A stretch of DNA of 40,425 nucleotides from Candidatus Microgenomates bacterium (lineage in GTDB: Bacteria > Patescibacteriota > Microgenomatia > UBA8517). A program made the position numbers and the translations under genes. The stretch spans positions 608,809 through 649,233 of the forward strand of contig JBEKNE010000001.1 of assembly GCA_049523135.1 (NCBI GenBank), in the 5' to 3' direction. How positions within the stretch are numbered: the first letter of the stretch is position 1; every line of letters starts with the position of its first letter. Positions 137 through 28,770 of the stretch are shown here, in pieces. The notes beneath the pieces were generated by a model. It ran no database searches. It had not been told where the DNA came from and saw only the letters and a list, made by a program, of their open reading frames with translations.

Positions 137-183
137 GCCTGGGATTTTTAACTAAAAACTAAAAATCCCAGGCAAGTCTTTTT
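137..183 (+). terminator. Rho-independent terminator
   Basis: Perfect 14-bp inverted repeat GCCTGGGATTTTTA (137-150) / TAAAAATCCCAGGC (160-173), with a T-run shortly after. Confidence 0.7.
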
Positions 184-188
184 AAAAT

Positions 189-216
189 TTGACAACCAAA
201 AATATAGTGCTAAAAT
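189..216 (+). promoter_or_regulatory. Sigma70-type promoter
   Basis: TTGACA (189-194), 16 nt, then TAAAAT (211-216) with an extended -10 TG at 208-209. Confidence 0.75.
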
Positions 217-235
217 ACTTTTTTGCTATTTAAAA

Positions 236-429
236 CTTAGACCCTGGTTCCTTGCTCACCTATTTGGGTGGGCAACGAACTGAGATTTAAGGATTAGACA
301 AATTACAGTTAAATAAATCCGCTATTACCGTCAGTCACGCGACGGGATGGAGCCTCCCAAATAGAGGCCGCAGCTAAAGCGTAAACTCAGTGAGATCGAT
401 AATAAAGGGAACCGAAAGGTTCCTTTTTT
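236..429 (+). ncRNA. Candidate structured ncRNA or attenuator leader upstream of hisS (family not recognised)
   Basis: Lies between a strong promoter and a terminator. Helices: 252-260/267-275, 279-289/382-391, 291-295/316-320, 328-332/341-345, 352-356/364-368. Confidence 0.5.
404..429 (+). terminator. Intrinsic terminator just upstream of hisS
   Basis: AAAGGGAACC-GAAA-GGTTCCTTTTTT: GNRA-capped stem followed by a U-tract. Confidence 0.8.
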
Positions 430-22585: not shown

Positions 22586-22645
22586 ATACGTCGACTTAAT
22601 TTACACAACTTTGCAACAAATTTCAATGAGTAAATACTGTTGCAT

Positions 22646-22861
22646 TCATTTGCTGTTTTTTACCAGATTCCAAACAAAAAAGGAGATAAATGAAACAACA
22701 AAAGAGACTTCTCCAAAAACGTCTTCCCTCGGCCAAGAAGCAAAGTGGGTTAATTGCATAGGCAGCGTTTCCGGATGTACCAAAGCAACCGCAACTATAT
22801 AAATCCATCCAAGCAAGCCGAAAACGAATAATGTTAAAGAAAAAGCTCGAATAATTTTCAT
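22646..22861 (-). CDS. Small two-TM membrane protein
   Basis: Two hydrophobic segments; TATGAT 6 nt before ATG. Confidence 0.7.
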   Translation of the reverse strand: MKIIRAFSLTLFVFGLLGWIYIVAVALVHPETLPMQLTHFASWPREDVFGEVSFVVSFISFFVWNLVKNSK

Positions 22862-22951
22862 ACATTTATCATATAAATGATATGAATAAGTTACAAGATC
22901 ATCTTACATATTTACAGAGTTAACTATAAGTTGTATAAAAAAATGGACTAA

Positions 22952-23158
22952 ATGAGATCATTAATTTCTCTATTAATTTCTTTTTTCTTGTCTTTTCATA
23001 TTTTTTCAGGCTCTGTGTTTGCGGCAAAACCCACACCCCCACCCAAACCGCCAACGGTATCTATTGTTAGTGTACCTGAGTTTGGGTTAATACCGTGGAT
23101 GGTCGCTTCCCTTACATCGGGTGGAATACTATTTTTCCTAAAGAAACACAATAACTAA
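22952..23158 (+). CDS. Minimal PEF(G)-CTERM sorting-signal protein
   Basis: Signal peptide ending VFA, Pro/Thr-rich 16-mer, VPEFG (23072-23086), TM, basic KKH tail; 8 nt upstream of the exosortase gene. Confidence 0.8.
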   Translation: MRSLISLLISFFLSFHIFSGSVFAAKPTPPPKPPTVSIVSVPEFGLIPWMVASLTSGGILFFLKKHNN

Positions 23159-23166
23159 ACCGCCTT

Positions 23167-24090
23167 ATGCTTAGACTGACGAAAAAACTTAAGCGAACTT
23201 TACTTAGTTTTTTACTTTTTTTAGTGTTGTTTATTTTTATCTCCGGTATTACCGGATCTTGGGTGGTATCAACCAGACTTCTTTACAGGTTTAATTTCTT
23301 CATTTACGGAAATTTGGGGAAAATGGTACTTACCTCGATAATTGTTTTTGGTCTTTTAATCCGCAAAAGGCTTAAGCAATTGGAAAAACTTCCAAAGATT
23401 AAAACAAATATTTTTTATATCGTTCTCTCTTTTATTTTGATCCCAATATTCTTTCTTTTGGGAAATACATTACTTGAGCAAAAATTTTTCAATGCAAACA
23501 TACTTTTATCCTTGGCAACCCACGGGGTTCTAATCTTAATTCCCACCCTTTTACTTCTGGGTATTTTTGGAATTAGTTTTCTGGTTTCTTTTGCCAAACA
23601 TTTCCAAAAAGAACTATTGATATGCCTGGGCATATCAATAGGTTATGACTTAGCCATATTTCAGGTCTGGAAGTTGTGGCCAATCTTTAGTGACGGCGTA
23701 CTCCAATCCGTACGCTTTCTTCTATCCCTTACATCGTCAAACGTTATGGTAATTCAACCCAGAGTGCTTGTCGTTAATAAATTTGCTGTCAGTATTGAAC
23801 AGGCATGTTCGGGACTGGACTCGCTCTTTATTTTTTCCTCACTCTACCTTCTAATTACCATTTTGGACTTCAAGGAATTCAATAAAGTGAAGTTAATCTG
23901 TATGGCTATTCCTGCCGCAATCGGATTATATCTTGTCAACATTTTAAGGGTTTACCTTCTTGTTATAATCGGTGCATACATATCCAGCGATTTAGCGGTT
24001 AATCTATTCCATACCTATCTCGGCATGGTGCTTTTTATAATCTTTTTCTTTATATTTTGGAAATCCTTTTACGTATGGATGAAAAAATAA
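23167..24090 (+). CDS. Exosortase/archaeosortase family transpeptidase
   Basis: Multi-TM with Cys-Arg-His triad contexts IEQACSGLDS, VNILRV, LFHTYLG. Confidence 0.88.
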   Translation: MLRLTKKLKRTLLSFLLFLVLFIFISGITGSWVVSTRLLYRFNFFIYGNLGKMVLTSIIVFGLLIRKRLKQLEKLPKIKTNIFYIVLSFILIPIFFLLGNTLLEQKFFNANILLSLATHGVLILIPTLLLLGIFGISFLVSFAKHFQKELLICLGISIGYDLAIFQVWKLWPIFSDGVLQSVRFLLSLTSSNVMVIQPRVLVVNKFAVSIEQACSGLDSLFIFSSLYLLITILDFKEFNKVKLICMAIPAAIGLYLVNILRVYLLVIIGAYISSDLAVNLFHTYLGMVLFIIFFFIFWKSFYVWMKK

Positions 24091-25236
24091 TTTGTATTTT
24101 TTTTCTATTTCGTCAGCATGTATTTTAATAGAATATTGCTCAGCCTTTTTACGTGCATTTTTACCCATTTGTTGAAGGAGTTTTCGATCTGATAGTAGTT
24201 GAGTAACTTTTTCGGCAATTTGTTCTGAATTACCCGGCTCAACCAAAAAACCCGTCTTACCATCATCAAGCCATTCGGGTATTCCTCCAACTCGTGTAGC
24301 GATTACAGGTCTTCCCGATCCGAAAGCCTCAATCCCAACTAAACCAAAAGATTCGGGGCACAATGAAGGAATTACGACTAGGGTTGTTTTGTAATATAAA
24401 CTCATTATTTGCCTGTGTGACTGAAAACCAAGAAACTTCACCATATTACCAATCCTGAGTTCCTCTGTAAGTTTTTTAAGATAACTCATTTGTGGTCCTG
24501 AACCAACAATATATAAATGTAACTTTGGATTTTTAATTAATATCTTTGGTAAAGCCCTAAGTAATATATCGGCGCCTTTTATTTCCTCAAGGCGGCCGAC
24601 AAATAACAAATGATGCCATTTTTGAATAGGCTTTGTTTTTGTTAATACGATACCGTCATGCAAAGTTACAACTCGCGTGAATAATTTTGATTGTTTGGCA
24701 CATAAACAATAGAAGTCGCTACATGCGAGTACTAAATCGATTGATTTGCAATATCGACGATATAACCAAAAACGTACTTTTTCTAAATAAAATCTAGGTG
24801 ATGGCGTATTTGTAAAATAACCTGAAAGTGTCTTGTCGTAAGGAGCTAAAGTTGTTATATCTTTAAACCTTGTAGGGTCAAATGCGGTATAGTCGTGAAT
24901 AGACAAAATCGTTGGATATCGTCTAGCGACGAGAAAAATTAACGGTGATGCTTTGGAGACATTGTGCATATGTACTATATCTGGTCTGAATTGCCGAAGT
25001 GTTACCCACAATTTCCATATAGCAAACGGGTTATAGATATATAAAAATTTCAATATAGAATTATCCGAGAAAGTTTTGAAACGCCAATCAGCAATTGTTT
25101 TACCATTACTCGCTTCATCTCCAGCAAGAATTCGTACCATGTGACCTTTTTTTTCAAGCTCACGACGAAGTTGTGCGATCATTATTTCGGTACCTCCGTG
25201 CATAGTACCAATATTATTCACGAATAGAATTTTCAT
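24004..25236 (-). CDS. GT4 glycosyltransferase
   Basis: MKILFVN..GGTE, PDIVHMHN, FVGRL..KG, PESFGLVGIEA, GGIPE. Confidence 0.92.
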   Translation of the reverse strand: MKILFVNNIGTMHGGTEIMIAQLRRELEKKGHMVRILAGDEASNGKTIADWRFKTFSDNSILKFLYIYNPFAIWKLWVTLRQFRPDIVHMHNVSKASPLIFLVARRYPTILSIHDYTAFDPTRFKDITTLAPYDKTLSGYFTNTPSPRFYLEKVRFWLYRRYCKSIDLVLACSDFYCLCAKQSKLFTRVVTLHDGIVLTKTKPIQKWHHLLFVGRLEEIKGADILLRALPKILIKNPKLHLYIVGSGPQMSYLKKLTEELRIGNMVKFLGFQSHRQIMSLYYKTTLVVIPSLCPESFGLVGIEAFGSGRPVIATRVGGIPEWLDDGKTGFLVEPGNSEQIAEKVTQLLSDRKLLQQMGKNARKKAEQYSIKIHADEIEKKYKLFFHPYVKGFPKYKEKDYKKHHAEIGME

Positions 25237-25250
25237 GGTTTTAACATATA

Positions 25251-27566
25251 TTATTTAAATATAATTGATTCGCCATTATTATAAATTATATTTTTATTAA
25301 TATTTAAAAACGTCGTTGGAAATTTGTAAGTAATTAATACTCCCCTTGTATATATATAAGCTTTCTTTTCAAGTGTATTTGTATAACTTGAATAGACATA
25401 AGCATGTGTATCTAATGTAGACGGGAAAACACTACCATCAACACCATTCTCATTATCATAATTTGATAACCACAATTTATACCATCCCCGTTCATCTGCA
25501 TAAATATAATCTTGCGCGTCTTCGTTTGAGAGTAACCAATTGGCAGATCTGACTTCTGACTCATGTGTATATAGCTCGTCATAACCATCGTTGTTATTGG
25601 TTAATTGCATTAATTCATTTGTCCCTCCCGTAATTAGCGTTGTAAAACCTGAGAAAGATAAGAAATATGATAAAAAAATAACAGAAATAAATATAACTGA
25701 GACATTTTTATTAATAAATTTAAATAATATCAATGTACCAAATACGGCAGGCAGGGATAGTAAAACCAATAATTGCTGATACGTTCTTGTTAAATCGTAG
25801 ACAATCGAGGCAAACGGCAACGTCATTACTGCTATTAAACCTAAAATACTAAATATAACTAGCGATACGTACTCAATATCAATTTCCCGTTTTTTTAACT
25901 CCCAAAATAGCATATAGAACGCGCCAATAATGATGAATATTTTTACTAGTTTTTGGATTAACGCATCATAATAATAAACTGTTGATGTTAAGATAGAATT
26001 ATTTTTTAAGGATACCGTGTCAGAAGGCGCCAGCTCCACACTATAATCGTTAAGTTTCTCCTGTGGATACAGATTAATACTTGGTATATTTCTGTATTCG
26101 GAAGTAATTTCTTTTAAATAATCTTGTAATAACAAATTTGGATCCTCTTGTTTATAAAATATATTAAATTGATCAAATGGTGATGTTTGCTCCGCCCGTA
26201 CATCTCCGCTAAAAATATTTCCCATATTTTGAACTGTCTCATCGGTAAAATTAACTAAATCATTAGAAATCTTCGTAACTTGAGTGTACCAAATGAAGCT
26301 AAAAACAATAAAAAAAGCGACAATGGTTCCGCTAAGATAATATTTTCTTTTCTCCCTTACCCCTCTTTTCTTTAAGCAAAGTTTTTCATACACGTTAGAA
26401 AAATATTTTTTGTTTTCAGTTTTTCTAAAAAATAAACAGGCCAAGAAAGTAAAAACAAAAAGAGCAAGTGCAATGTAAGTTGTTGAATAATGTGAAATCA
26501 CCATTGAAAATAAAAAGGTCAGAAGTAGCACATTTCTAGGCATCGGTCTGACAACTCTGTTAAATAGTGCCAGCAAAACTAAAGCAAAAAAAATCAAGGC
26601 AATTTCTTGTCTAATCGGTACACCTGCGCCAGAAGGAAAATCAGGTTGCGATACAAAAAAGAAAGCAGCTAAAAAGGCAAATATGCCTTTTGTATATTTT
26701 TTTAGAAATAGGTAAACCACAACAGGAACGATTGAAAATATCACTGGAATTATTAATTTGAATATATATTCGTCATTGATTTTGAGATAAAGAGAATAAA
26801 CAGTAGGAAGAACTGAAATGCTTAGGCATGCATTATAAGCACCCTGAAATAGTGACATACTCCAATATTTATTTTCTTTAATAACCTGAAATATGTGATA
26901 CTCCACATTTGTATCAACCCCAGAAACATACCAACTTCTCAACCACCATGACAACAATAAGGAAAGGGATATAAACAAAATGGACCATGGATAAACACAT
27001 TCGTTGAGTTTATTCCGGAAAAAGACAATAAGAATAATATAGATCACGATTCCTCCAAGCATGATCATGGTCAAATAATTGGAGCCGCCGTTGTTCAAAG
27101 TTATCGCTCCTAAAATACTTAAAATTGGAAAAATCACCGAGGTTATAAAAAACTTTTTGTTTAACCGATCAAGCTTTGGAAATCTAAGTATCAGCGAAAT
27201 ATATTTATTTCTTTTGTAAGCAATAATTCCAAAAATTGAAAGAGTAACATTGAAACAAATAAGTAAAGGGGTTAAAGAAAGCGGTTGGTCTGTAATATGC
27301 AGCCAAGGAAGAACCCAGTTTACAGCTAGGCCTGCAAACATTAATAAGGCAATACTAAACCCAATTGTGTAAACCAAATATTCCCAAAATTCGAGCTTCC
27401 TTATTTTGAACATTAGCATAATCAAAAGTCCGGGGATTGTTGTTAAAAAGATAAAGGAAAATACTGCCCTAATATAAAAATATTGGATATCAAAAATGAC
27501 TAAAAGGTTTGTAATCAGTCCGAAGATTAATATTCCTATAAAGATTTTACTTTTCGTTAGCTTCAT
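25251..27566 (-). CDS. DUF2206-like polytopic membrane protein (possible GT-C fold)
   Basis: Many TM segments, G.D..EY loop, RQEIA, SHYSTTY, C-terminal IYAD...IYNNG; ATG 27566 preferred. Confidence 0.78.
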   Translation of the reverse strand: MKLTKSKIFIGILIFGLITNLLVIFDIQYFYIRAVFSFIFLTTIPGLLIMLMFKIRKLEFWEYLVYTIGFSIALLMFAGLAVNWVLPWLHITDQPLSLTPLLICFNVTLSIFGIIAYKRNKYISLILRFPKLDRLNKKFFITSVIFPILSILGAITLNNGGSNYLTMIMLGGIVIYIILIVFFRNKLNECVYPWSILFISLSLLLSWWLRSWYVSGVDTNVEYHIFQVIKENKYWSMSLFQGAYNACLSISVLPTVYSLYLKINDEYIFKLIIPVIFSIVPVVVYLFLKKYTKGIFAFLAAFFFVSQPDFPSGAGVPIRQEIALIFFALVLLALFNRVVRPMPRNVLLLTFLFSMVISHYSTTYIALALFVFTFLACLFFRKTENKKYFSNVYEKLCLKKRGVREKRKYYLSGTIVAFFIVFSFIWYTQVTKISNDLVNFTDETVQNMGNIFSGDVRAEQTSPFDQFNIFYKQEDPNLLLQDYLKEITSEYRNIPSINLYPQEKLNDYSVELAPSDTVSLKNNSILTSTVYYYDALIQKLVKIFIIIGAFYMLFWELKKREIDIEYVSLVIFSILGLIAVMTLPFASIVYDLTRTYQQLLVLLSLPAVFGTLILFKFINKNVSVIFISVIFLSYFLSFSGFTTLITGGTNELMQLTNNNDGYDELYTHESEVRSANWLLSNEDAQDYIYADERGWYKLWLSNYDNENGVDGSVFPSTLDTHAYVYSSYTNTLEKKAYIYTRGVLITYKFPTTFLNINKNIIYNNGESIIFK

Positions 27567-28770
27567 GTGTAATTTTTTGGTAGATATCCTCAGTTTTTTC
27601 GACAATTAATCTCCAATCATATTTTTCTTTAACTAATTTCCTTGCTCTTTCCCCCATTTTTTTCGCCTCACTGGGATTTTTAATTAACCAAACAATCTTT
27701 TCAGAAAATTCACATGGATTATCGGCAAGTAGTATGTTTTTACCGTTTTCTACCGCTAAGCCTTCTGCACCTTTAGAACTGGCCACAATCGGTTTTTCCA
27801 TTGCCATATATTCCAAGATTTTTAACCTTGTTCCCGAACCTGATTTAATTGGCGCAATACATACTTTTGCTTTGATGAGATATTTACGTACATCAACCAC
27901 AAATCCAGGAAGAATAAGTGAAGAGTCATCGCGAGCAATCTTCTTTAACCACTGAGGTGATTTTCCACAAAGGACATATATCTTTACATCAGGTATTATT
28001 TTTCTGACAACAGGATGAATATCAAAAAAATAATAGTGTAGCGCCTCTTCATTAGGCGGATAACTTGCCTGACCCATGTAAAGCAATATGTTTTCCAAGA
28101 CTTGTTTTTTAGGTCTAAAGAAAACAGAATCGGCTCCATTCGGAATAACGGAAATTTTCTTAGCGTTTACTATGTTTGCGAAATATTTCTTGTCTGTATT
28201 AGAACATGTGAAGATATAATCAACTGATTTTGCCGCTTCGTTTTCTATTTGCTCAAGATTGGGAAGGATCCATTTACCAACTGTTTTTTTTAATAAATTA
28301 AATACCCCAAGTGTCTCCTTAAATGCTACTTGTTCTACATTGTGAGCATCAAGAACGATCTTAATATTTCGTTCTTTTATTCGAGGTATTATATCCTTGA
28401 TGGCATAATAAGCATTAATTTGTTCAAGTTGAATTATGTCAGGATTCTCTTCTTTAATCTTATCAAGAATAACGTTCGCAATATCAGATTCCTTGTATTC
28501 TTCCATATAAGGAATCACCTTTTTTACTAGAGACACATAAAATTTCTTTACTAGATTAAAACGCTTAAAAGGAACAGCGTAAATTGGAATATTTAAGCTC
28601 TTTTCAACAATTGGCAAAAATTTCTTTGTATGGCTATCAATAATAGTAAAAAGTGATACAGAAAATTTATATTTGGAGATTTGCTTAATAAGATTAAAAT
28701 TACGAATAGGTGCCCCACTAATTCTGGTCGGCAATTCTGTTGTAATAATAAATACCTTTATTTTTTTCAT
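27547..28770 (-). CDS. GT4 glycosyltransferase
   Basis: DAHNVE, VIPNG, YPPN, GSGTRLKILEYMA. Confidence 0.9.
   Translation of the reverse strand: MKKIKVFIITTELPTRISGAPIRNFNLIKQISKYKFSVSLFTIIDSHTKKFLPIVEKSLNIPIYAVPFKRFNLVKKFYVSLVKKVIPYMEEYKESDIANVILDKIKEENPDIIQLEQINAYYAIKDIIPRIKERNIKIVLDAHNVEQVAFKETLGVFNLLKKTVGKWILPNLEQIENEAAKSVDYIFTCSNTDKKYFANIVNAKKISVIPNGADSVFFRPKKQVLENILLYMGQASYPPNEEALHYYFFDIHPVVRKIIPDVKIYVLCGKSPQWLKKIARDDSSLILPGFVVDVRKYLIKAKVCIAPIKSGSGTRLKILEYMAMEKPIVASSKGAEGLAVENGKNILLADNPCEFSEKIVWLIKNPSEAKKMGERARKLVKEKYDWRLIVEKTEDIYQKITHEANEK

What the first reader, a model, noticed from the sequence alone, without database searches (positions are those of the whole stretch)
22952..24090. 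Mini-substrate exosortase system: a protein that is almost only a sorting signal
Seen: the 68-aa gene is signal peptide, AKPTPPPKPPTVSIVS, VPEFG, TM and KKH, 8 nt upstream of an exosortase/archaeosortase with Cys-Arg-His. Established: these enzymes process motif-TM-basic C-termini; PEP-CTERM is the bacterial type, while PEF- and PEFG-CTERM are described in archaea. Inference: an archaeal-type signal in a CPR bacterium whose mature product is only about 16-20 residues, too small to fold. It may be a lipid-anchored glycan carrier or primer rather than a cargo protein. From memory, Bacteroidota have similarly tiny PID-CTERM substrates, but I know of no described CPR PEF version.
Basis: partly seen in the sequence, partly recalled or inferred. 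Interest (0 to 1): 0.85.

Follow-up and report, generated by a model that had tools for sequence, protein, structure and literature searches.

The report
Tiny client of a CPR exosortase
A very small bacterium carries a membrane sorting enzyme whose only recognisable client is a 68-residue protein that is nearly all sorting signal, the shrunken extreme of an undescribed enzyme-plus-client gene pair found widely in such bacteria.

Summary
Window 22952-23158(+) encodes signal peptide, a 16-residue Pro-rich spacer, VPEFG, a TM helix and KKHNN. Eight nt later, 23167-24090(+) encodes an exosortase/archaeosortase-family protein with invariant Cys214/Arg261/His282.

It is not an oddity standing alone. 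Of 59 homologous enzyme loci, 51 carry 1-4 neighbouring proteins with the same [VI]PE[FY]G-TM-[KR] tail, and 42 have one directly upstream. Median client length is 150 aa, a transthyretin-like beta-sandwich.

In the window's own enzyme clade clients are short: 76-159 aa. The 68-aa gene sits where its syntenic relative L059 has a 95-aa client.

A tail profile built without the window finds this ORF alone in the complete 766-kb genome (E 7.8e-10; next 1.5). Two other complete minis exist among the 150 best representatives (70 and 76 aa).

No named Xrt/Art subtype or CTERM model matches, including the archaeal PEF/PEFG models. "Archaeal-type" is therefore unsupported.

Best reading: a reduced member of an unnamed dedicated Patescibacteria exosortase system. 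Processing and the fate of the ~20-residue product are inferred. A decaying relic remains a serious rival.

The parts
22952..23158 (+). 68-aa mini client gene (precursor of the sorting substrate), stop codon included
   Evidence: ORF. The tail profile built without it scores 37.8-39.2 bits. It is the sole hit in the genome. It is syntenic with the 95-aa client of L059.
22952..23023 (+). Predicted Sec signal peptide, residues 1-24: one Arg, a hydrophobic core, then small residues at -3/-1 (V-F-A)
   Evidence: Read from the sequence. It aligns with the signal peptides of relatives' clients. The cleavage site is inferred, not predicted by a dedicated tool.
23024..23071 (+). 16-residue Pro/Thr/Ser-rich spacer, residues 25-40. 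This is the whole 'cargo'. Its last five residues match the conserved hydrophobic strand that precedes the motif in relatives.
   Evidence: The profile alignment begins at residue 36, five residues before the motif.
23072..23086 (+). VPEFG signature motif, residues 41-45
   Evidence: In 76 neighbouring tails: P in 76 of 76, E in 75, F in 55 (Y 9, L 6, M 4), G in 73. The regex used to pick those tails required P, E or V, a hydrophobic residue and G/S/D/N, so these four columns are partly circular.
23087..23155 (+). C-terminal TM helix (residues 46-63) and basic end KKHNN (64-68)
   Evidence: These columns were not imposed by the regex and fit the profile (A52, S56, G57-G58, K64-K65). Trp49 is unusual: 63 of 76 tails have Gly there.
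23167..24090 (+). 307-aa exosortase/archaeosortase-family enzyme of an unnamed subtype
   Evidence: TIGR04178 and PF09721 over cut-off. 165 homologues. AlphaFold2 model with mean pLDDT 88, long helices plus a small sheet at 193-209. No relative in the PDB by sequence or by fold.
23806..23808 (+). Codon of Cys214, the presumed nucleophile
   Evidence: Invariant in A1. It lies in the TIGR04178 signature region 208-299.
23947..23949 (+). Codon of Arg261
   Evidence: Invariant in A1.
24010..24012 (+). Codon of His282
   Evidence: Invariant in A1.
24004..25236 (-). GT4 glycosyltransferase, convergent with the enzyme. Context only.
   Evidence: PF00534, 153 bits. A GT4 cluster occurs in 25 of the 60 slices compared (59 loci plus the window).
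25251..27605 (-). 784-aa DUF2206 membrane protein. Context only.
   Evidence: PF09971, 105 bits. The same cluster occurs in 9 of 60 slices, typically as enzyme - flippase - GT4(-) - DUF2206(-).

Best explanation
The pair is a reduced member of an unnamed, dedicated exosortase system of Patescibacteria (CPR).

The standard system: an exosortase-family enzyme is encoded next to one to four clients. Each client has a signal peptide, a small extracellular module and a C-terminal [VI]PE[FY]G + TM helix + [KR] sorting signal.

In this 766-kb genome the client has lost its module. Only the signal peptide, a 16-residue Pro-rich spacer and an intact sorting signal remain.

Proposed mechanism:
1. The precursor is exported by Sec and its signal peptide is removed.
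2. It is held in the membrane by the C-terminal helix.
3. The enzyme (Cys214/Arg261/His282) cuts at VPEFG on the outer face. By analogy with archaeosortase A, it hands the new C-terminus to an acceptor: a lipid in Haloferax, unknown in bacteria.
4. The product is a 19-21-residue Pro-rich peptide.

Shown here: the gene structures, family membership, the conserved pairing, and the single client in this genome.

Inferred: translation, cleavage, the acceptor, and any role of the product.

My confidence in the classification is about 0.85. My confidence that the mini gene is a working client is about 0.55.
For: Family and catalytic residues.

Conserved pairing:
- 51 of 59 enzyme loci (402 kb in total) hold 79 tail-bearing ORFs. 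77 of the 79 are on the enzyme's strand, and 42 of the 59 loci have one ending within 150 nt upstream.
- Outside its own locus, the 766-kb window genome holds none.

Dedicated system: in five other genomes the 1-2 strong tail hits each all lie inside the enzyme locus. One genome adds two weak hits elsewhere, at 21 and 19 bits.

Synteny with L059, whose enzyme is 75% identical:
- The gene order there is the same 71-aa (-) gene, then a 95-aa client, then the enzyme.
- Signal peptide and tail align at DNA and protein level, with the middle missing in the window.

Enzyme not decaying:
- It keeps every invariant residue.
- Its terminal branch (0.15) is shorter than those of its sisters L059 and L055 (0.24 and 0.22) in a clade supported 100/93.

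The mini form recurs:
- P0153 (70 aa) has the same layout of signal peptide, Pro-rich spacer and tail. It is 44% identical to the window protein over the full length (E 5e-16).
- P0157, the L066 type, is 76 aa.
- P0125 (58 aa) is of the Saccharibacteria type.

Mechanistic analogy: ArtA-dependent cleavage and lipid attachment, read in passages of PMC6098224 and of the Haft preprint 10.1101/2023.06.07.544157.
Against: - No expression or processing data. No RNA run holds the stretch.
- The tail scores at the low end of the family: 39 bits against a median of 50, although the family scores are inflated because the model was built from them. It has Trp where 63 of 76 tails have Gly.
- The locus is eroded compared with relatives. 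The Rce1-like CPBP gene, found in 22 loci by clustering and also upstream of the L055 enzyme, is missing. So is the flippase found in 26 loci.
- The genome's single CPBP gene lies 588 kb away and is not an orthologue.
- The sister locus L055 has the enzyme but no client in the 4.3 kb fetched.
- The other mini proteins lack genomic context. Their pairing with an enzyme is shown only for L066.
- Population data gave no variants, so selection could not be tested.
- Exosortase chemistry is unproven even for XrtA.
Confidence: 0.6

Rival explanations
1. The 68-aa ORF is a decaying remnant of a ~95-150-aa client. An internal deletion removed the module in a genome undergoing reduction. The ORF is no longer useful, and the enzyme either awaits loss or serves a client-independent role in envelope glycan assembly.
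For: - Among the 75 complete tail-bearing ORFs from the fetched loci the shortest is 76 aa and the median is 150 aa, so the 68-aa window ORF is shorter than all of them.
- The locus lacks the CPBP and flippase genes common in relatives.
- The tail has a Gly-to-Trp change at a conserved position and a low profile score.
- The sister L055 has no client nearby.
Against: - The ORF is intact from signal peptide to basic end, with an 8-nt operon-like gap.
- The enzyme shows no acceleration: branch 0.15 against 0.22-0.24.
- A 70-aa protein with the same layout exists at only 44% identity, so the form has lasted or arisen repeatedly.
- Short clients are the norm in this clade.
- A streamlined 766-kb genome keeping a 307-aa membrane enzyme argues for use.
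Confidence: 0.3
2. An archaeal-type PEF/PEFG-CTERM archaeosortase system acquired by a CPR bacterium.
For: - The motif contains P-E-F-G.
- 6 of 30 family members give sub-cut-off matches to archaeosortase C (best E 6.8e-12) and 1 of 30 to thaumarchaeosortase.
- One contig titled Methanobacterium carries a 37-residue fragment of the enzyme at its edge (L053).
Against: - TIGR03024 and TIGR04296 do not hit the ORF at E<=10.
- The window enzyme matches only bacterial Xrt models. All 30 of 30 members match XrtE, best E 2e-18.
- The family is spread over two deep Patescibacteria clades with conserved locus order.
- V-P-E is also the core of the bacterial VPEID and PEP signals, judged from the model names.
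Confidence: 0.03
3. A chance ORF next to a real enzyme.
For: The ORF is small, has no clear Shine-Dalgarno sequence, and no promoter-like site on the + strand.
Against: - The profile hit at E 7.8e-10 is the only one in the genome.
- The position and strand are as in 42 of 59 relatives.
- The DNA aligns with the L059 client gene.
Confidence: 0.01

Closest known systems
Exosortase E / VPEID-CTERM system (NCBIfam TIGR04162 and TIGR04161)
   Same: - It is the best-scoring named subtype for the window enzyme and for 30 of 30 family members.
- The motif core is V-P-E.
- There is an association with a CPBP (Rce1-like) protease. XrtE is described as 'exosortase E/protease', with a 516-position profile. 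In 22 of the 59 CPR loci a separate Rce1-like gene lies upstream of the client.
   Different: - The score is 48.6 bits against a cut-off of 150, and only profile positions 80-291 match.
- There is no fused protease.
- The VPEID-CTERM model does not hit the client.
- The motif is VPEFG.
- The window's locus has no CPBP gene at all.
Archaeosortase A / PGF-CTERM of Haloferax volcanii
   Same: - Same enzyme superfamily and the same tripartite signal.
- The cell has a single membrane; that CPR cells lack an outer membrane is recalled, not tested here.
- It is the only member with shown cleavage plus lipid attachment (passages of PMC6098224).
- It is therefore the best model for how the system works.
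   Different: - No ArtA model match was listed.
- The motif is PGF, not PEF.
- ArtA serves many clients (nine in H. volcanii), not one adjacent client.
- Archaeal lipids serve as the acceptor.
Archaeal PEF-CTERM/ArtC and PEFG-CTERM/thaumarchaeosortase
   Same: The motif letters resemble each other. A few family members give weak ArtC matches.
   Different: Neither CTERM model hits the client. Neither enzyme model is listed for the window enzyme at E<=10. The pairing of ArtC with PEF-CTERM is recalled from Haft et al. 2012, which is not held in the library.
XrtA/XrtB with PEP-CTERM
   Same: - The enzyme sits in a polysaccharide locus with GT4, flippase and epimerase genes.
- The motif abuts the TM helix with no spacer.
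   Different: - XrtA scores 28.8 bits against a cut-off of 208.
- The PEP_CTERM model does not hit the client.
- PEP-CTERM systems have many clients per genome in diderm bacteria. Here there are 1-4 adjacent clients.
   Same: Both models exist in NCBIfam. XrtX gives a weak match of 29.7 bits.
   Different: The cut-off is 170, and PID_CTERM has no hit in the genome. Whether PID-CTERM clients are tiny could not be checked: no paper in the library holds the term.

Membership tests
Exosortase/archaeosortase superfamily (TIGR04178, PF09721) | Signature HMM over its curated cut-off | tested here: met
   52.7 bits against 23, and 52.3 against 25.7.
Exosortase/archaeosortase superfamily (TIGR04178, PF09721) | Conserved Cys, Arg and His | tested here: met
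   C214, R261 and H282 are invariant in 30 sequences. The triad is as named in the Haft preprint.
Exosortase/archaeosortase superfamily (TIGR04178, PF09721) | Polytopic, deeply membrane-embedded protein | tested here: met
   The AlphaFold2 model has mean pLDDT 88 and is almost all long helices.
Exosortase/archaeosortase superfamily (TIGR04178, PF09721) | Co-occurrence with a tripartite C-terminal signal (motif, TM helix, basic end) | tested here: met
   51 of 59 loci, 79 ORFs.
Exosortase/archaeosortase superfamily (TIGR04178, PF09721) | Enzyme-dependent cleavage of the client | not testable with these tools
   This needs co-expression and mass spectrometry.
Dedicated (one-to-one) sorting system in the sense of Haft 2023 | Enzyme and target regularly encoded by consecutive or nearby genes, with few targets per genome | tested here: met
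   42 of 59 loci have a client directly upstream. There are 1-2 strong hits per genome in five genomes, all at the locus, and exactly one in the window genome. The criterion is quoted.
XrtE / VPEID-CTERM | TIGR04162 over its cut-off, with a fused CPBP protease half | tested here: not met
   48.6 bits against 150. Only positions 80-291 of 516 match, and the protein is 307 aa.
XrtE / VPEID-CTERM | Client matches TIGR04161 | tested here: not met
   No match at E<=10 in the genome.
ArtC / PEF-CTERM (archaeal) | Client matches TIGR03024; enzyme matches TIGR03762 | tested here: not met
   Two weak hits elsewhere in the genome and none on the ORF. ArtC is not listed for the window enzyme.
Thaumarchaeosortase / PEFG-CTERM | Client matches TIGR04296; enzyme matches TIGR04297 | tested here: not met
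   No match. The enzyme model is not listed for the window enzyme.
XrtA / PEP-CTERM | TIGR03109 over its cut-off; client matches TIGR02595 | tested here: not met
   28.8 bits against 208. The only PEP_CTERM hit is a 33-aa frame elsewhere, below cut-off.
XrtX / PID-CTERM | NF046081 over its cut-off; client matches NF046080 | tested here: not met
   29.7 bits against 170. No PID_CTERM match.

The most novel reading that the evidence does not exclude
In this lineage the exosortase does not sort a folded protein. Instead it makes a short, C-terminally modified, Pro-rich peptide of about 20 residues: a ribosomally made surface lipopeptide, or an anchor or primer for the glycan built by the neighbouring GT4 and DUF2206 genes. 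The mini gene would then be the natural minimal substrate. It would show that about five residues before VPEFG, plus the helix and basic end, are all the enzyme needs.
Probability: 0.12. Interest if true: 0.8.

Novelty: new variant of a known kind. Interest (0 to 1): 0.55.

Why it matters
- **No reconstituted exosortase exists.** A 2018 review states that exosortases had not been analysed experimentally. Neither a sequence search nor a fold search of the PDB found a solved relative.
- **The system is tractable.** One enzyme has one adjacent client, and here that client is only 68 residues with nothing but the signal. That makes a natural minimal substrate for co-expression, mass spectrometry and structure work.
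- **It extends the family into CPR bacteria.** These are recalled to have a single membrane, whereas PEP-CTERM systems were defined in diderm bacteria. The system may therefore be a bacterial counterpart of archaeal lipid anchoring.
- **It offers two annotation models.** The 468 representative proteins carrying the tail and the 165 enzyme homologues are at present 'hypothetical' or generic 'exosortase/archaeosortase family'.
- **A three-part system is possible.** The frequent CPBP protease neighbour hints at a system related to the fused XrtE.

Tried and rejected
- **Homologues of the mini protein.** A single-sequence search found only itself. A profile search restricted to 18-119 aa gave 7 hits, four of them N-terminally cut fragments.
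- **Relatives in the same taxonomic family.** Only 3 of 60 other genomes gave even weak enzyme matches, and those are a different, smaller enzyme.
- **Complex prediction on enzyme plus mini.** The verdict was 'no answer' (scores 0.15 and 0.02, mark 0.32). I draw nothing from it.
- **Expression.** No RNA holder was listed. The promoter and terminator scan was uninformative: 2 promoter-like sites, both on the - strand, against 6.0 expected.
- **Population variation.** The laid contigs were identical, so there is no test of selection.
- **dN/dS.** Not attempted. DNA is lacking for P0153, and divergence from L059 is too high over about 27 codons.
- **Rooted tree with named Xrt and Art references.** Not built, because I had no reference sequences. 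HMM scores were used instead.
- **Record titles.** Many genome-contig loci are titled Gammaproteobacteria, Acidobacteriota, Verrucomicrobiia or Weeksellaceae. They interleave with Patescibacteria rows in the enzyme tree. I did not verify their taxonomy.
- **Literature.** Haft et al. 2012 (PMC3256604) is not held, and supplements are closed. Its subtype tables, and the supplementary tables of the Haft 2023 preprint, may list systems that I could not see.
- **Chance ORF and archaeal transfer.** Both were considered and rejected; see the rival explanations.
Full report
**1. Observation**

The window holds a 68-codon ORF at 22952-23158(+). Its ATG directly follows an in-frame TAA, so the start is unambiguous. 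The product reads as follows:
- residues 1-24: a signal peptide with one Arg, a hydrophobic core, and V-F-A before the predicted cut;
- residues 25-40: a 16-residue Pro/Thr/Ser-rich spacer;
- residues 41-45: VPEFG;
- residues 46-63: an 18-residue hydrophobic stretch;
- residues 64-68: KKHNN.

Eight nucleotides after its stop, a 307-codon ORF begins (23167-24090). It passes the exosortase/archaeosortase signature TIGR04178 (52.7 bits, cut-off 23) and Pfam PF09721 (52.3, cut-off 25.7). In an alignment of 30 homologues at 47-77% identity, Cys214, Arg261 and His282 are invariant.

An AlphaFold2 model built on that alignment is confident (mean pLDDT 88, pTM 0.79). It is nearly all long helices, with a small sheet at 193-209 just before Cys214. 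The PDB holds no relative by sequence or by Foldseek (best E 2.4).

**2. Is the small ORF more than chance?**

The genome is one 766,412-base contig at 39% G+C, scored 100% complete. It has a single exosortase-family gene.
- A regex for P-E-hydrophobic, a charge-free stretch and a basic end finds only this ORF.
- A profile built from 76 tails of other loci, window excluded, scores it 37.8 bits at E 7.8e-10 over the six-frame genome. The next hit has E 1.5.
- A motif-free scan for C-terminal TM-plus-basic ends returns 14 frames. None shares a motif apart from this one.
- A contig from another sequencing run (X2, a different study code) covers 22600-23543 with no difference. The short gene and its junction with the enzyme are therefore not an assembly accident, although the samples may be one campaign.

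**3. What the pair belongs to**

The enzyme has 165 homologues in the protein collection. Source names, where given, are Woesebacteria, Patescibacteria or generic 'exosortase/archaeosortase family'.

I fetched 46 loci from species genomes and 13 from metagenomes, 401,636 bases in all. A tail profile at 20 bits or more finds 79 ORFs in 51 of these 59 loci.
- By locus: 30 have one, 16 have two, 3 have three, 2 have four, and 8 have none.
- 77 of the 79 ORFs are on the enzyme's strand.
- 42 of the 59 loci have one ending within 150 nt upstream of the enzyme match.
- The eight loci without one are L016, L019, L020, L026, L027, L053, L055 and L064. Three of them (L019, L053, L064) have little or no upstream sequence.

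These tails trained the model, so their scores are inflated. The contrast with one hit in 766 kb of the window genome is the control.

In five other genomes that carry the enzyme, the 1-2 strong tail hits per genome all fall inside the enzyme locus. One genome adds two weak hits elsewhere, at 21 and 19 bits. This fits what Haft calls a dedicated system, recognised by regular adjacency of enzyme and target (passage).

The tail consensus runs well beyond the motif: a hydrophobic strand, V-P-E-F-G, then x-I-x-G-x-x-A-x-x-x-S-G-G-A-[FY]-L, and three basic residues.

**4. The usual client**

Median client length is 150 aa. Evidence on its fold:
- A profile of 61 such clients has two invariant Cys.
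- The profile weakly matches Ig-like adhesin repeats in the PDB: MpAFP region II at 2e-5 and Bap at 5e-4.
- Individual clients give sub-threshold CarboxypepD_reg, Big_1 and SdrD_B matches.
- The AlphaFold2 model has pLDDT 94-98 over residues 31-120. It is a beta-sandwich whose best Foldseek matches are transthyretin-like and carboxypeptidase-regulatory domains.

**5. The window's clade and the origin of the mini form**

In a maximum-likelihood tree of 51 enzymes the window groups with L059 and L055 (support 100/93), then with L054 (99/93). Two deep clades separate Saccharibacteria-type rows from Woesebacteria, Daviesbacteria, Levyibacteria and WWE3-type rows. Eight loci with partial enzymes were left out of the tree.

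Clients in and near the window's clade are short and are not beta-sandwiches:
- ~95-113-aa proteins with a ~40-residue Cys/His module;
- Asn/Asp/His-rich segments ending in a Cys-x-x-H-P-x-x-P-x-Cys loop;
- in L066, a 76-aa protein with 18 residues between the signal peptide and the motif.

L059 is syntenic with the window. It has the same 71-aa membrane gene on the minus strand, then a 95-aa client, a 514-aa glycosyl-hydrolase-like gene, and the enzyme. Protein and DNA alignments match the signal peptide and the tail of the two client genes and leave the middle absent in the window. All 75 complete clients from the fetched loci are longer, the shortest being 76 aa. Loss of the module in the window lineage is therefore the economical reading. 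The direction of change is inferred.

**6. Do other mini forms exist?**

An exhaustive profile search of 1.84 billion representatives finds 468 tail-bearing proteins at E<=0.001. I read only the best 150.
- About 91 are 126-200 aa.
- About 40 are 81-125 aa.
- After I set aside fragments by eye, three are complete at 80 aa or less: the window's protein (68), P0153 (70) and P0157 (76).

P0153 has the same layout as the window's protein and is 44% identical over the full length, including a similar signal peptide (E 5e-16 pairwise). P0125 (58 aa) joins a signal-peptide-like start directly to the last strand and tail of the Saccharibacteria type.

**7. Named families**

- No named Xrt or Art subtype reaches its cut-off. 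The best is XrtE of the VPEID-CTERM system, at 48.6 bits against 150, matching only profile positions 80-291 of 516.
- Across 30 members, 30 match XrtE, 30 XrtV, 29 EpsH, 28 XrtA, 6 ArtC and 1 thaumarchaeosortase. All are below cut-off.
- The mini protein and six longer clients match no NCBIfam CTERM model at its cut-off.
- Direct searches of the genome with PEF-CTERM, PEFG-CTERM, PEP-CTERM, VPEID-CTERM and PID-CTERM models do not hit the ORF.
- Literature searches for exosortase with Patescibacteria, candidate phyla radiation or Saccharibacteria returned nothing relevant. PEF-CTERM and PEFG-CTERM appear only in papers on archaea (listings).

The system therefore looks undescribed, within the limits of this library and of closed supplements. 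'Archaeal-type' is not supported.

**8. Locus context**

Clustering of neighbouring ORFs shows a recurrent order: CPBP (Rce1-like) protease, client(s), enzyme, Polysacc_synt flippase, GT4 or GT2, and DUF2206 on the other strand.
- CPBP occurs in 22 loci by clustering, and a Pfam scan finds another one upstream of the L055 enzyme. The flippase occurs in 26 loci, GT4 in 25 and DUF2206 in 9. Many loci are truncated.
- The CPBP neighbour echoes XrtE, whose NCBIfam name is 'exosortase E/protease'.
- The window keeps enzyme, GT4(-) and DUF2206(-) but lacks the CPBP and flippase genes.
- Its genome has one Rce1-like gene 588 kb away. That gene shows no similarity to the L055 copy and only family-level similarity to the L045 copy.
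- Its three Polysacc_synt genes are all more than 190 kb away.

The locus is thus reduced as a whole.

**9. Mechanism and weighing**

By analogy with archaeosortase A, the enzyme should cut at the motif on the outer face and pass the new C-terminus to an acceptor. For ArtA, cleavage and lipid attachment were shown, and whether they happen in one step is open (passages). Here the product would be 19-21 residues long.

For a working client:
- the ORF is intact and operon-like;
- it is the sole client of an enzyme that shows no sign of decay (terminal branch 0.15 against 0.22-0.24);
- mini and short clients recur.

For a relic:
- the locus is eroded;
- Trp49 replaces a conserved Gly;
- the tail score is low (39 bits against a median of 50);
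- a sister locus has no client nearby.

I put about 0.55 on function, 0.3 on relic, and about 0.85 on the classification. The glycan-primer idea rests only on the Pro/Thr/Ser spacer and the glycosyltransferase neighbours.

**10. Verdict**

This is a real and correctly described pair. It is a new variant of a known kind: an unnamed dedicated exosortase subtype and tail in Patescibacteria, seen here in its most reduced form.

Noticed in passing
window 22646-22861 (-): A 71-aa hydrophobic ORF with no Pfam match. It is conserved and syntenic in L059 at 166-381(-), so it is likely a real small membrane protein gene.
   Followed up: partly
L004 1-1845; L005 1453-3095; L006 1453-3258: In three related genomes a second, smaller exosortase-like ORF (194-201 aa) lies directly downstream of a large secreted protein. 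That protein's end reads V-V-P-E-F-T-T-V-P-E-N-P, then a TM helix, then a basic end. This is a second VPEF-type dedicated pair in CPR genomes. The fourth copy, L007, has no such neighbour in its 3.3-kb locus.
   Followed up: partly
L015, L017, L018, L022, L024, L027, L032-L035, L037-L041, L043-L047, L051, L055 (upstream of the client): An Rce1-like CPBP intramembrane protease gene is a frequent first gene of the locus: 22 loci by clustering, and Pfam also finds one upstream of the L055 enzyme. This suggests a three-part system resembling an unfused XrtE. It is missing from the window's locus.
   Followed up: partly
L059 544-831; L063 1716-2377; L054 2127-2441; L065 243-539; P0150, P0170, P0199: A ~40-residue client module with conserved Cys and His residues and no Pfam or NCBIfam match. 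It replaces the beta-sandwich in the window's clade. It might bind a metal, but this was not tested.
   Followed up: no
L062 1423-1833; L066 2040-2378; P0133, P0148, P0241: Clients made of Asn/Asp/His/Lys-rich low-complexity sequence that ends in a conserved Cys-x-x-His-Pro-x-x-Pro-x-Cys loop just before the motif.
   Followed up: no
L032-L052 clients (Saccharibacteria-type): The strand before the motif is very often V-N-V-S, which contains an N-x-S sequon. Whether it is glycosylated is unknown.
   Followed up: no
window 24004-24090: The 3' ends of the enzyme gene and of the convergent GT4 ORF overlap by 87 nt. The true GT4 stop and any terminator were not examined.
   Followed up: no
L053; loci L008-L031 record titles: A contig titled Methanobacterium carries a 37-residue fragment of this enzyme at its edge. 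Many loci titled Gammaproteobacteria, Acidobacteriota, Verrucomicrobiia or Weeksellaceae interleave with Patescibacteria rows in the enzyme tree. These are probably binning or labelling problems; I did not verify this.
   Followed up: no
window 22600-24200: Identical sequence occurs in contigs of several peat and wetland metagenome runs under different study codes, so the same strain is widespread in such samples.
   Followed up: partly
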